From the NCBI GenBank assembly GCA_038065715.1, contig JBBTQL010000002.1, positions 1-56,275 of the forward strand: a stretch of DNA of 56,275 nt. Direction: 5' to 3'. The notes under the pieces are model-generated. The model saw only the letters and a program-made list of their open reading frames with translations. It did no database searches and had not been told where the DNA came from. Numbering within the stretch: position 1 is the first letter of the stretch; each line of letters starts with the position of its first letter. The position numbers and the translations under genes were made by a program. Of the stretch, positions 16,276 through 36,384 are shown piece by piece. This DNA comes from Patescibacteria group bacterium (GTDB taxonomy: Bacteria; Patescibacteriota; Minisyncoccia; Minisyncoccales; Staskawiczbacteraceae).

Positions 16276-16346
16276 AGGGGCATAGTTCAATGGCAGAATA
16301 ATGGTCTCCAAAACCATTGATCAAGGTTCGAATCCTTGTGCCCCTG
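16276..16346 (+). tRNA. trnW: tRNA-Trp (anticodon CCA)
   Basis: Cloverleaf: acceptor AGGGGCA/TGCCCCT, anticodon arm ATGGT-CTCCAAA-ACCAT, T arm CAAGG-TTCGAAT-CCTTG. Confidence 0.93.
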
Positions 16347-16406
16347 CCTTCGCTTCGCTGTAGCGAAGCTTCGGCAAGGCGAAGCCTGCCTAAGATTCGC
16401 GAAGGC
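16346..16406. repeat. GC-rich palindromic repeat element, copy 1, directly abutting the tRNA-Trp 3' end
   Basis: Overlapping hairpins GCTTCGC-TGTA-GCGAAGC (16352-16369) and GCTTCG-GCAAGG-CGAAGC (16368-16385), with an outer GCCTTCGC (16346-16353) / GCGAAGGC (16399-16406) pair. Confidence 0.85.
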
Positions 16407-16418
16407 GAGAACAATAAA

Positions 16419-16649
16419 ATGTTTTATGTTTATAATTTAAAATGTAAAGATGGGTTTTATACAGGTTGCACGAACGATATTGTAGATAGGCTAAAAAGGC
16501 ACGAAAACGGCGAGGTTATCGCTACTGCAAATCGCTTGCCGGTTAGTTTGCATTTCTATATGGCTATTGAGGATAAATATAAAGCATACGAATTAGAAAA
16601 GTATTTCAAGTCTGGATCAGGAAGGGCATTTGTAAATAAGCATTTATAA
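16419..16649 (+). CDS. GIY-YIG nuclease-domain protein (76 aa)
   Basis: FYVYNLKCKDGFYTGCTNDIVDRLKRHENG matches the GIY-YIG (URI) motif. The ORF-track start at 16317 overlaps the tRNA, so it is trimmed to the ATG at 16419. Confidence 0.8.
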   Translation: MFYVYNLKCKDGFYTGCTNDIVDRLKRHENGEVIATANRLPVSLHFYMAIEDKYKAYELEKYFKSGSGRAFVNKHL

Positions 16650-16857: not shown

Positions 16858-17226
16858 CTATTCGCCGATGAAATCAGGATCAGTATTCTCGAAGAACTCC
16901 TCGGTCTTCATATACTTTTCCAACTCACGCTGGAAGTACTCGTCGAACTGGTCATCGGCGATGCCCAGTTTCTTGGCCGCCTCTCGGAGCTCGGGCTCCA
17001 GCTTGCGGGAACCGATTTCAGCCGCACGCTTTACGTACCTCGTGAGGAACGTGTAAGCCGCGAGATCCTCCAAAGGAACCCCCATCTTTACGGCAAGCTT
17101 GTCTAAGTCACCGAAAAGATCGTACCAGTCCAGCATGGCCTTCCAGCCTCCCTGACGATTCAGTTCGGCTTCTTCTTGGATGGCTGTCTGCCGGAGAAGT
17201 TCCTCCATTATTTTCACACCAGTCAT
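16858..17226 (-). CDS. Orphan protein D (122 aa, net acidic), 4th cistron of the GC-rich operon
   Basis: SD GAAGGAG lies 6 nt upstream of the ATG. GC-rich codon usage. No motif recognised. Confidence 0.7.
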   Translation of the reverse strand: MTGVKIMEELLRQTAIQEEAELNRQGGWKAMLDWYDLFGDLDKLAVKMGVPLEDLAAYTFLTRYVKRAAEIGSRKLEPELREAAKKLGIADDQFDEYFQRELEKYMKTEEFFENTDPDFIGE

Positions 17227-17254
17227 GTTTCGCTCCTTCTAAATGTACAAATTT

Positions 17255-17306
17255 CTGTTTTCGTCCTTTCGGACTCATCAGTTCCGATAACACATCGGAA
17301 TAACAG
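17255..17306 (-). ncRNA. Type III hammerhead ribozyme motif (HHR-1)
   Basis: Minus strand: CUGUUA / UUCCGAU-GUGUU-AUCGGAA / CUGAUGA / GUCC-GAAA-GGAC / GAAA / ACAG. All core nucleotides are present and stem III is a 5-bp CUGUU/AACAG. Confidence 0.8.
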
Positions 17307-17360
17307 GAGGGTTTTGTTTTAGGCAACCCTCATGCCTTTCTTATCGTTGCATTTAACCCG

Positions 17361-17537
17361 TTAGGGTTTGGTCTGGCTGGGCGAATTCGCATTCTGCCTT
17401 GCCAGCTTCGCGTCGAGCCTCCGGATCATTGCCTGCCTTTCGGCAGATGTCATACTCTTCAGCTCGGCGTAACGCCTTTTCCCTAGAAGCCGTTGAACGG
17501 CTTCGGGAGTCAGTTCTCTCGCTTCCTCATCCGTCAT
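17361..17537 (-). CDS. Unannotated 58-aa basic helical ORF C (MTDEEARELTPEAVQRLLGKRRYAELKSMTSAERQAMIRRLDAKLARQNANSPSQTKP)
   Basis: Translated by hand codon by codon. ATG at 17537, TAA at 17363-17361, SD AAAGGAG 7 nt upstream. It starts 23 nt after the stop of cistron B and is below the 60-aa ORF-track cutoff. Confidence 0.6.
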   Translation of the reverse strand: MTDEEARELTPEAVQRLLGKRRYAELKSMTSAERQAMIRRLDAKLARQNANSPSQTKP

Positions 17538-17560
17538 TGGATGACTCCTTTTTGGTTGTT

Positions 17561-17971
17561 TCAGCAGATGTCGCCGTTGGCATTGAAGTTTACGGCTGTA
17601 CCATAGAACTCCTGCTTGGCTGACTTTCGGTAGAACCGAATTTCAACTCTCACCGTGCAGTTGATAAATGCCTTCAAAGTTGCCTCAATTCGCACTGACT
17701 CGCGGAATTCTCTGAAAATCCTATCCGATTCCGCATGGCAGCCATCAAAAAACTTGTATATGATCTGCAACTGCGGACGCAACTCTTCACGGTCGTGATA
17801 GCCACTCATCAGAAGCCCGACAAGTTCAGCCGGAAATACGACTGCATGATTGAAGGCTTTCGCCAGTAATCCGCTATCTTTCACGCCGGTCTCGCACTCG
17901 AGATTCTTCTTATTCGTCAAACGCTGGCGGAGGTAGTTGTCGATAAAAATCGACACTTTCTTGAGTAACAT
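17561..17971 (-). CDS. Orphan protein B (136 aa), 2nd cistron
   Basis: The internal ATG at 17971 has SD AAAGGAG 7 nt upstream. The longer ORF-track start (18061) would read through the hammerhead motif. Confidence 0.65.
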   Translation of the reverse strand: MLLKKVSIFIDNYLRQRLTNKKNLECETGVKDSGLLAKAFNHAVVFPAELVGLLMSGYHDREELRPQLQIIYKFFDGCHAESDRIFREFRESVRIEATLKAFINCTVRVEIRFYRKSAKQEFYGTAVNFNANGDIC

Positions 17972-18022
17972 CGCGATTCTCCTTTTGGGAAATGGCTCGC
18001 TATGGCCAATAAAAATGTGCAA

Positions 18023-18071
18023 CTGTTTCGTCCTTTTGGACTCATCAGGGAAAGCACACACTTTCCGACAG
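18023..18071 (-). ncRNA. Type III hammerhead ribozyme motif (HHR-2)
   Basis: Minus strand: CUGUC / GGAAAG-UGUGUG-CUUUCC / CUGAUGA / GUCC-AAAA-GGAC / GAAA / CAG. The core is complete with a GUC cleavage triplet. Confidence 0.82.
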
Positions 18072-18139
18072 ATGGAGAAATTTGGATGTGTCGGTATTCT
18101 CCGTTGCGCTGGCGCGCACCGACTTATTATCGTGGGAGG

Positions 18140-18709
18140 TTACTCCTCGTGTTCACTCTCCGGGTAGAGAGTTAGCTCTGAAACGGGTTTCCATTTCTTC
18201 CCGTCCCACAAGCGGCTTCCGTTCGGAAGCTCCACGACATCGTTGTCGAACTGATCGTTGAAGGCCATCCAGTGATTGATATCCTTTCTGCACCGGAACT
18301 TCCCGCTGTGGCCCATGTCAGCGCTATACAACCTTGACCCCCACGGCACCGCCAGTAAGCGATATCCGTAATGATCTCCGCTGTTATGGCTGAACGTGGA
18401 CGCCACGACGAGAGCATCTCGCGAACCAATCCCTGCCAGTGCCTGATCAACTCCGACCAGGCAATCTAGCAACTCGACCTCCTGTCCGCGGAACACATAG
18501 ATCCGCTCCTCTTCCACGCCGAGGTTGGCGAAGCGCACGAAGTCCTCCTTTGGCCTGGGCTGGGGTTTGAACCCCACTTTCTCCAGTGCCAAGTTGAAGG
18601 CTTCGAGCACCTTCTCGCTTCCCATCTGGACATCCGAGTCCAGGGCGAACAAACGATCGATGCCACAGAAATCGTTGACCGGACCGACGAAGTAACGGTA
18701 AGTAGCCAT
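18140..18709 (-). CDS. Orphan protein A (189 aa), 1st cistron
   Basis: GC-rich ORF with GAAAGGA 9 nt upstream of the ATG. No motif recognised. Confidence 0.7.
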   Translation of the reverse strand: MATYRYFVGPVNDFCGIDRLFALDSDVQMGSEKVLEAFNLALEKVGFKPQPRPKEDFVRFANLGVEEERIYVFRGQEVELLDCLVGVDQALAGIGSRDALVVASTFSHNSGDHYGYRLLAVPWGSRLYSADMGHSGKFRCRKDINHWMAFNDQFDNDVVELPNGSRLWDGKKWKPVSELTLYPESEHEE

Positions 18710-18789
18710 GAGATTTGTTCCTTTCAGGAAAACGGGCTCTCTATGGCCCTAAATCAGGGGAAGCACCTATACTACAATGTACTATATTA

Positions 18790-18818
18790 AGTATATAATA
18801 CTCTAACCATATTGTCAA
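18790..18818 (-). promoter_or_regulatory. Sigma70-type promoter of the GC-rich operon
   Basis: Minus strand: TTGACA (18818-18813), a 17-nt spacer, TATACT (18795-18790), then TAATATA. Confidence 0.7.
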
Positions 18819-26693: not shown

Positions 26694-27004
26694 TCAGTAA
26701 AAATTTAGATGCAGAGCGCTGGCAAAAACTTTCTTTGAGCCAACAACTTGCGAATATCGGTAGCGAGGTTAGTCGCGCTTCGAGTTTGAGGCAAAAAAAA
26801 GATAAAGAAAATATGGATAAGTCCTTTTTCCGCGCAATAGAATTAATTGATTTGACTATTGCCGATAAAAGGTGGAAAAATCGTCTTTCTGAAATTTTTA
26901 AACTGCGTGAGATTGTTTGCGATTTATTTTTTGGAGAAAATGTTTTTAAAACAAACCCAGAATTTTTGAAAAATTATTTTTTATTCTTCGCTTTAAACAT
27001 CTAA
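26681..27004 (+). CDS. Hypothetical 107-aa helical protein
   Basis: Translationally coupled to the upstream ORF. Confidence 0.5.
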   Translation: MENIVSKNLDAERWQKLSLSQQLANIGSEVSRASSLRQKKDKENMDKSFFRAIELIDLTIADKRWKNRLSEIFKLREIVCDLFFGENVFKTNPEFLKNYFLFFALNI

Positions 27005-27060
27005 TTCAAGTTCCGCAAGAACAAGTAATGTGGAAAGTTGTCGGCCAAGGCTGGAAATAA
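27001..27060 (+). repeat. 60-bp direct repeat, copy 2 (orphan copy of the protease gene 3' end, still encoding IQVPQEQVMWKVVGQGWK-stop)
   Basis: See copy 1. Confidence 0.9.
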
Positions 27061-27109
27061 AAATTTATTAAAATAAAAAAACGCTAAATCTTTTAATATT
27101 AATAAAAAT

Positions 27110-27553
27110 ATGGCAGAATCATTAAAATTCAATGACGAAAATGAAAATAAGGAAAAAGTAGAAAGGCCAGTTATTTATTCTGCATTTTTTGTTGACGACC
27201 CAGAAAAGTTAAAACAAAAATATCCACCCGTTTTTCCAAAGGAATTTTATCATCACTCCACAATTGAATATAGGCCTAAGAATGGAAAACAGGGATTAGA
27301 AGTCGGTAAAAAAGTACAATTAGAAATTATTGGAAGAGTTACAAGTGATAAAGTAGATGCATTATTGGTTGTAAATTAAAAATCCGAGAAGGGAAATCCG
27401 CACATCACACTTTCAACCGCAGAAGGGACTAAATCAAACGCGAGTAACTCTGAAATTGAAAAAGCAGTCAAGAAAGATGCTGTTGAAAAATTACAAGATT
27501 TTGTTGAAGCCACCGAAGGATATTTTGACGGAACAAACGATATTAAAGAATAA
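27110..27553 (+). pseudogene. 2H-phosphoesterase-family gene interrupted by an in-frame TAA at 27377-27379
   Basis: The first H-x-T/S motif (HHSTIEY) lies before the stop. The second (PHITLS) lies 8 codons after it in the same frame. The frame continues to the TAA at 27551-27553. Confidence 0.6.
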
Positions 27554-27576: not shown

Positions 27577-27613
27577 AAAAAAGCCGTTATCAAACAATAA
27601 AGTTGACAACGGC
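27577..27613 (-). terminator. Intrinsic terminator of GC-rich cassette 2
   Basis: Minus strand: GCCGTTGTC ... GATAACGGC hairpin followed by UUUUUU. Confidence 0.7.
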
Positions 27614-27641
27614 TCTGAAAATCACTCAGCGTTGTTCCAGC

Positions 27642-28271
27642 CTACGCCGGTACAATTTGGACAGTGCCACCCCTGACGCACAGTTGGCGTTTGGGGACGA
27701 TGGGCACAGGCCCTTCGCCAATGCGATTTCCCTGGTCATCCTTTTCCCACCGCTTGATGAGTTCGCCATTTGGCTGGACGATCGTATCGCGGGCCGCGAG
27801 GTTCACGCTCAAGGCGCGTTGGTCTTGGACTTCCTCGTCCTTAAAAAAGAACGGGTTGTCGAAGACACGGACTCGCCACATCGCATTTTCAGCCATGTTC
27901 TGTAAAGCGAAGCGAATCTCGTCACGCACCGAACGGAATTCGTCGCTGAGCTCCGCGGACTCGCGGCGGCAGAAGACAAAGCGAACCATGTGATAAGTCC
28001 GTCTCTGCCGGGGATCCTTCGGGTCAATGCGCTCTTTGTAGGACGCGTCAACCAATTCGAATCCCGCCTGCTCGAGCCCGAGAGGGAACTCTACGAGTCC
28101 ACACCCCGGCGTTGGCTCAATAACGAGCACGCCGTTTGAGTGGGTCTTCCGTTCCTTGTGCTCCGCAGGCGACTCCTTCTCTGTCCGCTTCACCACCTCC
28201 GGAATCGCGGCAGGGTTGGTGAAAGAAAACTGCACCACAACCATTCTAACACACTCGCGCAAGGTCACCAT
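27642..28271 (-). CDS. Orphan protein (209 aa) of GC-rich cassette 2
   Basis: GC-rich ORF with SD GAGGAG 7 nt upstream of the ATG. No motif recognised. Confidence 0.7.
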   Translation of the reverse strand: MVTLRECVRMVVVQFSFTNPAAIPEVVKRTEKESPAEHKERKTHSNGVLVIEPTPGCGLVEFPLGLEQAGFELVDASYKERIDPKDPRQRRTYHMVRFVFCRRESAELSDEFRSVRDEIRFALQNMAENAMWRVRVFDNPFFFKDEEVQDQRALSVNLAARDTIVQPNGELIKRWEKDDQGNRIGEGPVPIVPKRQLCVRGGTVQIVPA

Positions 28272-28316
28272 TGCTGGTCTCCTCGGGAAAAGGAAAAAGT
28301 GAAGTGTATTATATTA

Positions 28317-28345
28317 AGTATAGCATATATAAATAATCTTGTCAA
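28317..28345 (-). promoter_or_regulatory. Sigma70-type promoter of cassette 2
   Basis: Minus strand: TTGACA (28345-28340), a 17-nt spacer, TATACT (28322-28317), then TAATATA. This is the same 13-mer TATACTTAATATA seen at 18795-18783. Confidence 0.7.
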
Positions 28346-36090: not shown

Positions 36091-36119
36091 TTGACAATGG
36101 TATTTTTATACTATATAAT
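36091..36119 (+). promoter_or_regulatory. Consensus sigma70-type promoter
   Basis: TTGACA (36091-36096), a 17-nt spacer, TATAAT (36114-36119). Confidence 0.7.
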
Positions 36120-36189
36120 AAAATATTATTGAGGTTTCTCAATAGTCCCCGCGCTAAGGGTTTTAGCGCTGTTCTTTAAGGAGAAGGCA

Positions 36190-36270
36190 ATGGTTGTGGC
36201 AAGAATTTTGGGCTGGCTATTCGTGCTTTATTGCGCGATGAAGGCGGTCTCTACCTTTTTCCAAGGGTAA
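36190..36270 (+). CDS. 26-aa hydrophobic peptide MVVARILGWLFVLYCAMKAVSTFFQG
   Basis: SD AAGGAG lies 6 nt upstream. It has its own consensus promoter, a two-hairpin leader and a terminator. Hand-translated; not in the ORF track. Confidence 0.5.
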   Translation: MVVARILGWLFVLYCAMKAVSTFFQG

Positions 36271-36303
36271 CCGTTGAGCAGAAACCCACACAAATCGCCG
36301 CCA

Positions 36304-36336
36304 GCCAGAGTATTGACCCTACTTTGGCTTTTTTTT
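36304..36336 (+). terminator. Intrinsic terminator
   Basis: GCCAGA ... TTTGGC hairpin followed by T8. Confidence 0.6.
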
Positions 36337-36384
36337 ATAAAAACTTGATACTTAGCGTTAATTATTTTATACTATAAAATAATA

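What the first reader, a model, noticed from the sequence alone, without database searches (positions are those of the whole stretch)
27577..28345. Second GC-rich orphan cassette with a matching promoter, inserted just upstream of dnaK
A single 209-aa ORF (28271-27642, minus strand) has clearly higher GC than its neighbours. It has a GAGGAG SD, its own hairpin plus U6 terminator (27613-27577) and a promoter TTGACA-17-TATACT. The 13-mer TATACTTAATATA in that promoter is identical to the one driving the four-gene operon at 18795-18783. The region generates four spurious shadow ORFs, which is typical of GC-rich coding DNA. I recognise no motif in the protein. The shared promoter layout, strand, composition and cassette architecture suggest both islands belong to one class of acquired element.
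Basis: partly seen in the sequence, partly recalled or inferred. Interest (0 to 1): 0.65.

Follow-up and report, generated by a model that had tools for sequence, protein, structure and literature searches.

The report
Mobile GC-rich gene cassette, hyper-structured mRNA
The GC-rich gene next to dnaK is not an orphan: it belongs to a large, unstudied protein family found almost only in Patescibacteria (ultra-small "CPR" bacteria), it travels between them as a ready-made promoter-gene-terminator unit, its messenger RNA is unusually tightly folded, and its protein has a confidently predicted fold unlike any solved structure.

Summary
ORF 27642-28271(-), GAGGAG SD, near-consensus promoter (TTGACA-17-TGcTATACT), hairpin+U6 terminator and four shadow ORFs are all present. 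ORF GC is 0.57 against about 0.34 for the window, and GC3 is 0.69 against 0.28.

The gene is acquired: none of 80 related genomes has it at dnaK, and DNA contigs span both junctions. It is not an orphan: a profile search finds 693 cluster representatives, nearly all 195-235 aa, with no Pfam or NCBIfam match.

The 13-mer promoter tag is generic. It gave at least 119 hits in unrelated AT-rich bacteria, with no GC-rich payload downstream. Island-1 genes do not co-occur with this gene.

New findings:
- In 26 genomes from many Patescibacteria lineages this gene alone is GC3-richer than its host.
- The conserved DNA block runs from promoter to terminator.
- dS of 0.29 between hosts of 33% and 57% GC indicates recent horizontal transfer.
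- The mRNA is hyper-structured: mean ORF z is -3.4 against -0.65 in controls. The signal persists under synonymous-codon shuffling, is stronger on the sense strand, and shows covariation.
- The AlphaFold model (pLDDT 92) has no PDB or viral structural match.

Best reading: a moron-like mobile cassette whose GC content reflects selection for mRNA structure. The protein's function is unknown; nucleic-acid binding is a weak inference.

The parts
28340..28345 (-). -35 hexamer TTGACA. It marks the 5' edge of the conserved cassette.
   Evidence: CTTGACA is conserved in homologous cassettes (A2). BLASTN similarity between cassettes in unrelated flanks starts 156-163 nt before the start codon, which is at the promoter.
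28317..28325 (-). Extended -10 element TGCTATACT, 17-nt spacer from the -35.
   Evidence: 11 of 12 consensus matches, with TG before the hexamer. TGcTATAcT is conserved across homologue loci.
28272..28310 (-). Short 5' leader with SD GAGGAG (28284-28279). It lacks the 25-bp leader hairpin that most family members carry. The transcription start is predicted, not mapped.
   Evidence: The hairpin in other members has 15 of 25 pairs with compensatory changes across 13 sequences (A6). L231 also lacks it.
27642..28271 (-). CDS of the 209-aa protein (stop TAG at 27642-27644). GC is 0.57 and GC3 is 0.69. The mRNA is hyper-structured.
   Evidence: dN/dS is 0.13-0.35. AF2 pLDDT is 92.1. Fold z is -4.0 against dinucleotide shuffles and -2.5 against synonymous-codon shuffles.
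27577..27641 (-). 3' UTR and intrinsic terminator: an imperfect hairpin with outer arms AGCCGTT (27614-27608) and AACGGCT (27588-27582), ending in a T6 run at 27582-27577.
   Evidence: An equivalent GC-rich terminator hairpin is conserved in homologues (helix 29 has 4 compensatory pairs). Similarity between cassettes ends 60-84 nt after the stop codon.

Best explanation
Window 27577-28345(-) is one copy of a horizontally mobile, single-gene expression cassette found almost only in Patescibacteria.

Shown:
- The unit conserved between genomes is a complete transcription unit: near-consensus sigma-70 promoter with extended -10, leader, strong SD, a roughly 205-aa ORF and an intrinsic terminator.
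- It sits in unrelated chromosomal contexts and has no conserved partner gene.
- It was inserted in this genome between a small 2H-phosphoesterase-like gene and dnaK.
- Its synonymous sites are arranged so that the sense RNA folds far more stably than expected. This holds across the family and comes with covariation.
- The protein is real and under purifying selection. It has a confidently predicted alpha/beta fold with no structural match.

Inferred:
- The GC3 excess over every host is maintained by selection for this mRNA structure, not only by donor composition.
- The structure, together with the 5' hairpin that most members carry and the 3' terminator hairpin, makes a long-lived, nuclease-resistant message. 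The cassette therefore expresses strongly in whichever AT-rich host it lands in.
- The protein is a cytoplasmic accessory factor. Conserved Arg and aromatic residues on its beta-sheet (QFSFSN, YHMVRFxF, WRVR, R161) suggest that it binds nucleic acid, possibly RNA.

The molecular function and the insertion mechanism remain unknown.
For: Family and distribution:
- 46 homologues with the single sequence, 143 with the profile, all 'hypothetical' and labelled Patescibacteria or Parcubacteria.
- 693 representatives in 1.84 billion proteins, nearly all 195-235 aa.
- 26 loci in Lipton-, Nealson-, Taylor-, Uhr-, Andersen- and Berkelbacteria, WWE3 and Minisyncoccales.

Single-gene GC island in every locus: driven by GC3 (for example 0.81 vs 0.35 in L011 and 0.83 vs 0.33 in L029).

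Cassette boundaries run from promoter to terminator. No neighbouring gene recurs across loci.

Horizontal transfer:
- L011 (host GC 33%) and L017 (Uhrbacteria, host GC 57%) differ by dS 0.29.
- The gene is absent at dnaK in 80 relatives.
- DNA contigs span both junctions.

Coding: dN/dS is 0.13-0.35. AF2 pLDDT is 92.1 and pTM 0.87.

RNA structure:
- Whole-transcript z is -6.7 (window) and -7.0 (L011).
- 27 family ORFs have mean z -3.4 against -0.65 for 20 control ORFs, including 14 GC-matched CPR genes. Mann-Whitney p = 7e-7.
- Synonymous-codon shuffles give z of -2.4 to -7.9 in 12 of 12 tested.
- The sense strand is more structured than the antisense in 11 of 13, Wilcoxon p = 6e-4.
- The consensus structure is 91% paired across 9 sequences. 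It has 37 doubly-changed pairs, against 16.4 +/- 3.1 in shuffles (0 of 500) and 13-16 with slid partners.

No structural or family match.
Against: - There is no expression data. No RNA run holds the sequence, and run X6 looked like low-coverage DNA. Promoter strength, mRNA stability and abundance are therefore inferred.
- The consensus structure was derived from the same alignment on which it was counted, and that alignment is dominated by close relatives.
- A few members show little excess structure (L021 -0.3, L031 -0.2, L024 -0.6).
- The window copy lacks the family's 5' hairpin.
- Nucleic-acid binding is weakly based. Mean family pI is 7.65, so the protein is not basic, and no known nucleic-acid-binding fold was matched.
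- The mechanism of mobility is unknown. No recombinase, repeats or target duplications were identified.
Confidence: 0.55

Rival explanations
1. The GC-richness is only the un-ameliorated signature of recent transfer from a GC-rich donor. The extra RNA folding is incidental and has no function.
For: Horizontal transfer is clearly recent in one subfamily: dS is 0.26-0.65 between cassettes in hosts of very different GC. That subfamily keeps GC3 near 0.8 whatever the host. In GC-rich hosts (L017, L025) the gene is not distinguishable by GC.
Against: The GC3 excess is also present in deeply diverged subfamilies (35-45% identity: L024, L026-L028, 0.41-0.62 against 0.26-0.32 in the host), where dS to the window copy is saturated. 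Excess folding survives synonymous shuffles that keep composition and codon usage. It is absent from GC-matched native CPR genes, is strand-specific, and shows covariation. Named members are almost all Patescibacteria, and no GC-rich donor lineage was seen.
Confidence: 0.15
2. The transcript itself is the key entity. It could be a dual-function or 'selfish' structured RNA whose encoded protein binds or packages it, forming an RNP. Alternatively it could be an endogenised descendant of an RNA or ssDNA replicon. On this view the DNA cassette is only its launch pad.
For: CDS-wide conserved structure with z of -4 to -8 is typical of RNA-virus and viroid-like genomes, not of bacterial mRNAs. The RNA is about 0.75-0.95 kb and encodes one protein of about 205 aa with a novel fold, superficially like Obelisks (10.1101/2024.01.20.576352). 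The best, though weak, fold hits are uncharacterised Cressdnaviricota proteins (Foldseek probability 0.89, TM 0.29). The neighbouring island carries hammerhead ribozymes.
Against: The promoter lies upstream of the transcript yet is part of the transferred unit, so spread is at the DNA level. There is no ribozyme and no Rfam hit in the cassette. The short contigs checked are not circular. The MFE structure is branched rather than rod-like. No viral-contig relatives were found. The TM-score of 0.29 is below any same-fold threshold.
Confidence: 0.12
3. It is a stand-alone accessory defence, toxin or competition gene. The unusual mRNA is a secondary adaptation, for example resistance to RNases or to host shut-off.
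For: Distribution is patchy, transfer is horizontal, the gene is single with variable context, it is often next to tRNA genes (6 of 29 within 200 bp), and dN/dS is moderately high at 0.13-0.35. All of these are typical of defence-island cargo.
Against: There is no PADLOC, Pfam or PHROGs hit, no nuclease, NTPase or TIR-like motif, no partner antitoxin or immunity ORF, and no clustering with known defence genes was seen.
Confidence: 0.15
4. It is an artefact: a mis-assembled or contaminating GC-rich fragment, or a non-coding region with a chance ORF.
For: There is a sharp GC step at both ends. The gene is on the opposite strand to its neighbours.
Against: Independent runs give contigs that cross both junctions at the depth of the flanks. 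The same protein is on 8 contigs from NCBI, ENA and Logan. There are 693 homologue clusters, purifying selection and a pLDDT of 92.
Confidence: 0.02

Closest known systems
Phage 'morons': independent promoter-gene-terminator units spread by horizontal transfer (PMC3594210)
   Same: The architecture is the same: one ORF with its own promoter and factor-independent terminator, nucleotide composition unlike its neighbours, inserted between unrelated genes, and moved horizontally as a unit.
   Different: It is not in a phage or prophage. The flanks are hrcA-grpE...dnaK-dnaJ, there are no PHROGs hits and no relatives in 2.9 million viral contigs. The family is almost confined to Patescibacteria chromosomes. 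A CDS-wide selected mRNA structure is not a described property of morons.
Obelisks / Oblin-1 (viroid-like ~1 kb RNAs; 10.1101/2024.01.20.576352)
   Same: A roughly 1-kb, highly base-paired RNA whose main ORF encodes a roughly 200-aa protein of novel fold with no homologues outside its own group.
   Different: The cassette is DNA-encoded, with a promoter and terminator. Its RNA is branched rather than rod-like, and there is no evidence of circularity. Oblin-1 is a helical 'globule' with a GYxDxG domain-A. This protein is beta-rich and lacks that motif.
IS200/IS605-type minimal insertion sequences
   Same: The unit is small (0.7-1 kb), carries a single gene and has conserved hairpins near its ends. 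It occurs in many genomic contexts.
   Different: There is no Y1/HUH transposase signature or Pfam hit, and the hairpins are transcript elements (5' leader and terminator). The element carries a consensus promoter. No multicopy occurrence was seen (one copy in the window).
The neighbouring GC-rich island at 16858-18818(-) of the same window
   Same: Both are on the minus strand, have a near-consensus promoter (18 of 20 identical from -10 onward), a GC-rich payload and an abnormally structured mRNA (z -5.1 for the 189-aa ORF). Both are apparently acquired.
   Different: The island has four ORFs separated by two type III hammerhead ribozymes. Its 189-aa protein has no homologue in 5.8 billion clusters. 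It is never found near p209 homologues.

Membership tests
Phage moron | Single ORF flanked by its own promoter and intrinsic terminator | tested here: met
   The feature is conserved in homologues. This is sequence-level evidence only; transcription was not measured.
Phage moron | Nucleotide composition distinct from the surrounding genome | tested here: met
Phage moron | Located inside a phage or prophage genome between conserved phage genes | tested here: not met
   The flanks are chaperone-operon and housekeeping genes. There is no PHROGs hit and no relative in viral contigs.
Obelisk / Oblin-1 | Circular RNA genome of about 1 kb with a rod-like fold, known as RNA only | tested here: not met
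   The sequence is present in DNA metagenome assemblies within a chromosome. The MFE is multibranched. Short contigs have no terminal overlap.
Obelisk / Oblin-1 | Oblin-1 helical 'globule' and the GYxDxG domain-A | tested here: not met
   The model has 10 strands and 3 helices. The alignment has no GYxDxG motif. Features were compared with the description in 10.1101/2024.01.20.576352. No Oblin model was available for a direct comparison.
IS200/IS605 | Y1 HUH transposase (TnpA) and/or TnpB | tested here: not met
   There is no Pfam or NCBIfam hit for any of 44 members. There is no HUH motif among the conserved columns.
Integron gene cassette | Promoterless ORF followed by an attC site, in an array next to intI | tested here: not met
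   The cassette has its own consensus promoter and a terminator and is solitary, with no recurrent neighbour. A dedicated search for attC or intI was not run.
Hammerhead-ribozyme-bearing cassette (as in island 1) | Hammerhead or another known self-cleaving ribozyme within the transcript | tested here: not met
   Rfam at permissive E-value on the window cassette and on L011, and at gathering threshold on 15 homologue loci, gave none. The CTGATGA...CGAAA pattern occurs only in island 1.
   There is no Pfam or NCBIfam match. It is absent from 80 of 80 related dnaK loci. Only 26 loci were found among 185,579 species genomes.
Known anti-phage defence proteins (PADLOC) | Profile match to a known or candidate defence protein | tested here: not met
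   0 families at E <= 1.

The most novel reading that the evidence does not exclude
Patescibacteria exchange a previously unrecognised kind of mobile unit. It is a bare promoter-to-terminator cassette whose coding sequence doubles as a conserved, highly base-paired RNA. The novel-fold protein it encodes acts on or with that RNA, for example as a self-binding or packaging RNP or as a domesticated replicon protein. GC-rich 'islets' in these AT-rich genomes would then mark an RNA-centred element class. The hammerhead-bearing island at 16.8-18.8 kb would be a second example.
Probability: 0.12. Interest if true: 0.9.

Novelty: new variant of a known kind. Interest (0 to 1): 0.68.

Why it matters
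Patescibacteria make up a large share of bacterial diversity, but their accessory genes are almost entirely uncharacterised.

This work defines a large protein family (about 700 clusters at 50% identity) with a confidently predicted fold that has no solved or viral structural match, which makes it a clear target for structural and functional study.

It also shows something unusual at the nucleotide level. The gene is GC3-richer than every host it lives in, apparently because its mRNA is selected to be heavily base-paired across the whole coding region. That pattern is expected of RNA-virus genomes, not of bacterial mRNAs.

If confirmed, this would give three things: an explanation for GC-rich islets in AT-rich symbiont genomes that does not rely on donor composition, a natural example of expression tuning through CDS structure, and a marker for tracing gene flow among CPR lineages.

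Tried and rejected
- Family libraries: Pfam, PHROGs, PADLOC and NCBIfam on the protein gave nothing, and Pfam on all 44 aligned members gave nothing consistent.
- PDB sequence profile search: best hit E = 1.7.
- Rfam: gathering and permissive scans gave no RNA family in the cassette.
- Viral contigs: no relatives.
- RNA-seq evidence: no RNA runs were found, and the one candidate run (X6) looked like low-coverage DNA.
- Promoter-signature scan of 185,579 genomes: the signature is generic and has no GC-rich payloads.
- Co-occurrence with island-1 proteins: none. Paralogues in the window: none.
- Circularity of contigs about 1.4 kb long that carry homologues: none. They are chromosomal fragments flanked by tRNA genes.
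- Fusion or extended homologues as functional clues: uninformative.
- Basic-protein (histone-like) idea: rejected, mean pI is 7.65.
- Oblin-1 relationship: rejected on fold and motif.
- Literature linking hammerheads, GC islands and CPR: nothing relevant.
- Not used: the metagenome-contig scan and a custom covariance model.

Full report
**1. Observation**

- ORF: 28271-27642, 209 aa.
- SD: GAGGAG at 28284-28279, 7 nt upstream of the ATG.
- Promoter: TTGACA (28345-28340), 17 nt, TATACT (28322-28317), preceded by TG. It matches 11 of 12 consensus positions.
- Terminator: an imperfect hairpin of about 14 bp, then T6 at 27582-27577 (fold).
- Shadow ORFs: four, as stated.

The window averages about 0.34 GC, while the ORF is 0.57. 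The difference lies mainly at third codon positions: GC3 is 0.69 against 0.28 in 31 other ORFs.

The 13-mer TATACTTAATATA occurs only at 28310-28322 and 18783-18795. Chance expectation is 0.23, and 3 of 100 shuffles reached two hits.

The cassette is really in this chromosome. Contigs from independent DNA runs cross both junctions at the same depth as the flanks. The identical protein is on eight contigs from NCBI, ENA and Logan. DnaK is 84% identical to Staskawiczbacteria, so the organism is a Parcubacteria-group member of the Patescibacteria from groundwater.

**2. Not an orphan**

- A single-sequence search found 46 homologues of 35-56% identity, all about 200-220 aa and all unnamed.
- A profile search against 1.84 billion cluster representatives found 693 hits at E <= 1e-3 and 333 at E <= 1e-30.
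- A profile search that returns source names found 143 proteins, all 'hypothetical', with only Patescibacteria, Parcubacteria or Andersenbacteria labels and no Pfam domain.
- Invariant or near-invariant residues form the motifs QFSFSN, GYELVDA, YHMVRFxF and AMWRVRAFxNPF.
- Pfam, NCBIfam, PHROGs and PADLOC give nothing.

**3. Acquired and mobile**

In 80 genomes with related DnaK the local order is hrcA-grpE-(0-2 genes)-dnaK-dnaJ, and none has the gene.

Among 185,579 species genomes, 26 loci were found. They belong to Lipton-, Nealson-, Taylor-, Uhr-, Andersen- and Berkelbacteria, WWE3, Minisyncoccales and unclassified Patescibacteria. A few MAGs carry other labels (Omnitrophota, Gammaproteobacteria); I did not verify those.

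No neighbouring gene recurs except between close relatives. Island-1 proteins are never nearby.

BLASTN between cassettes in unrelated flanks aligns from 156-163 nt before the start codon to 60-84 nt after the stop. That span runs from the promoter to the terminator (alignments).

Cassettes in L011 (host GC 33%) and L017 (Uhrbacteria, 57%) differ by dS 0.29. This is impossible for vertical descent between such hosts.

Six of 29 loci lie within 200 bp of a tRNA gene, and the tRNAs differ (Leu, Arg, Phe, Gln). This hints at permissive sites near tRNA genes rather than one attachment site. No relatives occur in viral contigs.

**4. A family-wide composition anomaly**

In every one of the 26 loci the gene alone stands above its flanks in GC, for example 61 against 33 in both L011 and L029. 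The excess is in GC3. It persists in subfamilies only 35-45% identical to the window protein. It disappears only where the host is itself GC-rich.

**5. The mRNA is hyper-structured**

- Whole transcripts fold with z of -6.7 (window) and -7.0 (L011) against dinucleotide shuffles.
- ORF-only z is -4.0 for the window gene. Across 27 family ORFs it ranges from -0.2 to -7.9, with mean -3.4.
- Six host ORFs give -0.05 to -1.8. Fourteen native CPR ORFs of 52-61% GC give a mean of -0.5. Mann-Whitney p = 7e-7.
- Shuffling synonymous codons, which keeps the protein and the codon usage, still gives z of -2.4 to -7.9 in 12 of 12.
- The sense strand is more structured than the antisense in 11 of 13 cases, p = 6e-4. 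This points to RNA with G-U pairs rather than to a symmetric DNA property.
- A consensus structure over nine transcripts is 91% paired. It has 37 pairs with changes on both sides, against 16.4 +/- 3.1 in shuffles (0 of 500) and 13-16 when partners are slid. The caveat is that the structure was derived from the same alignment.
- Most members also carry a 25-bp hairpin in the 5' leader, with compensatory changes at 15 pairs. The window copy and L231 lack it.
- No Rfam family matches.

**6. The protein**

dN/dS of 0.13-0.35 shows purifying selection. AlphaFold2 with 44 sequences gives pLDDT 92.1 and pTM 0.87. The model has an N-terminal beta-alpha-beta-alpha-beta-beta-alpha unit, followed by a long beta-hairpin (130-163) and four short strands.

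Structure searches found no match:
- Foldseek against PDB: no match, TM below 0.2.
- BFVD: best TM 0.29, to uncharacterised Cressdnaviricota proteins.
- PDB sequence profile: nothing.

The protein has no signal peptide or TM segment by inspection. Family mean pI is 7.65. Conserved Arg, Tyr and Gln residues alternate with hydrophobic residues on strands 1, 4 and 5. From this I infer, weakly, a nucleic-acid or nucleotide-binding sheet surface.

**7. How it most likely works**

Shown: an autonomous, horizontally transferred transcription unit, and an mRNA under selection for extensive pairing.

Inferred: the GC3 excess is the compositional footprint of that selection. The pairing, plus the terminal hairpins, stabilises the message. 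A newly arrived cassette therefore expresses strongly from a promoter that any sigma-70 holoenzyme will read. The product is a cytoplasmic accessory protein of unknown activity.

Rivals are donor-GC carry-over, an RNA-centred element or RNP, and a defence or toxin gene. They are weighed in the fields above.

**8. The 'one class of element' claim**

The promoter tag is generic.

The two window promoters share 37 of 59 positions. The p209 promoter shares 26-36 of 59 with its own homologues' promoters. From the -10 onward they share 21 of 33, just above the maximum of 20 in 4,794 AT-rich 33-mers. This is suggestive at best.

The two islands do share GC3-richness and abnormal mRNA structure (z -5.1 for the 189-aa ORF). 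They differ in everything else. Island 1 has two type III hammerheads, four ORFs, and a 189-aa protein with no homologue anywhere.

**9. Comparison with known systems**

Architecturally this is a 'moron' (PMC3594210) outside any phage. It resembles Obelisks only superficially. Oblin-1 is helical and carries a GYxDxG motif, and Obelisks are circular RNAs. It is not an IS200/IS605 element, not an integron cassette and not a known defence gene.

I rate it a new variant of a known kind, the autonomous horizontally transferred gene cassette. Two features are undescribed to my knowledge: the CDS-wide selected RNA structure and the novel-fold protein family confined largely to CPR bacteria.

Noticed in passing
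window 18020-18074(-) and 17259-17318(-): There are two type III hammerhead ribozymes inside the other GC-rich island. The first scores 49.7 bits in Rfam RF00008 (gathering threshold 48.5). The second was found by the CTGATGA...CGAAA pattern and folds into the canonical three-way junction. They bracket the 136-aa and 58-aa ORFs, so self-cleavage would release an RNA of about 0.76 kb with ligatable ends. The island's 189-aa protein has no homologue in 5.8 billion clusters, and its ORF folds with z = -5.1.
   Followed up: partly
window 36091-36345(+): This is the third perfect-consensus promoter in the window (TTGACA-17-TATAAT). It drives a tiny GC-enriched unit: a 26-aa hydrophobic ORF (36190-36270, MVVARILGWLFVLYCAMKAVSTFFQG) followed by a terminator-like hairpin with a T-run, just upstream of tRNA-Ala. 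It looks like a small membrane peptide or a type I toxin-like cassette.
   Followed up: no
window 27110-27552(+): The gene immediately downstream of the cassette's terminator looks like a 2H phosphoesterase (LigT-like), with HSTIEY and HITLS motifs. It is interrupted by an in-frame TAA at 27377-27379. It is either a pseudogene or a read-through candidate. The same sequence is present in independent assemblies.
   Followed up: partly
window 27000-27072: A segment of about 65-70 nt here also occurs, with 3-8 mismatches, on other contigs of the same metagenomes and about 270 nt away in the same contig (read laying joints and loose ends). It is a short dispersed repeat of unknown nature.
   Followed up: no
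window 1-2099: The 23S rRNA match stops at model position 2632 of 2925 at window base 227, and 5S rRNA starts only at 1991. The 3' end of the 23S gene is therefore probably interrupted by an insertion of about 1.4 kb, an intron or intervening sequence of the kind common in CPR rRNA genes.
   Followed up: no
L007:1230-1400, L017:950-1125, L232:30-205: In three homologue loci an extra segment of about 190 nt lies between a tRNA 3' end and the cassette promoter. It ends in its own small terminator-like hairpin. It is conserved although the hosts differ (42% to 57% GC), so some cassettes may travel as a larger unit.
   Followed up: partly
window 16317-16649(+), overlapping tRNA-Trp 16276-16348: An ORF with a GIY-YIG-like N-terminus (by eye: YVYNLKCKDGFYTGCTNDIVDRLKRH) sits between tRNA-Trp and the 3' end of the hammerhead island. 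It may be relevant to how that island was inserted. I did not check it against Pfam.
   Followed up: no
L006-L031, L231-L233: Six of 29 family cassettes lie within 200 bp of a tRNA gene (Leu, Arg twice, Phe, Gln and one partial), and others lie within 1 kb of a tRNA or tmRNA. No statistical null was computed.
   Followed up: partly
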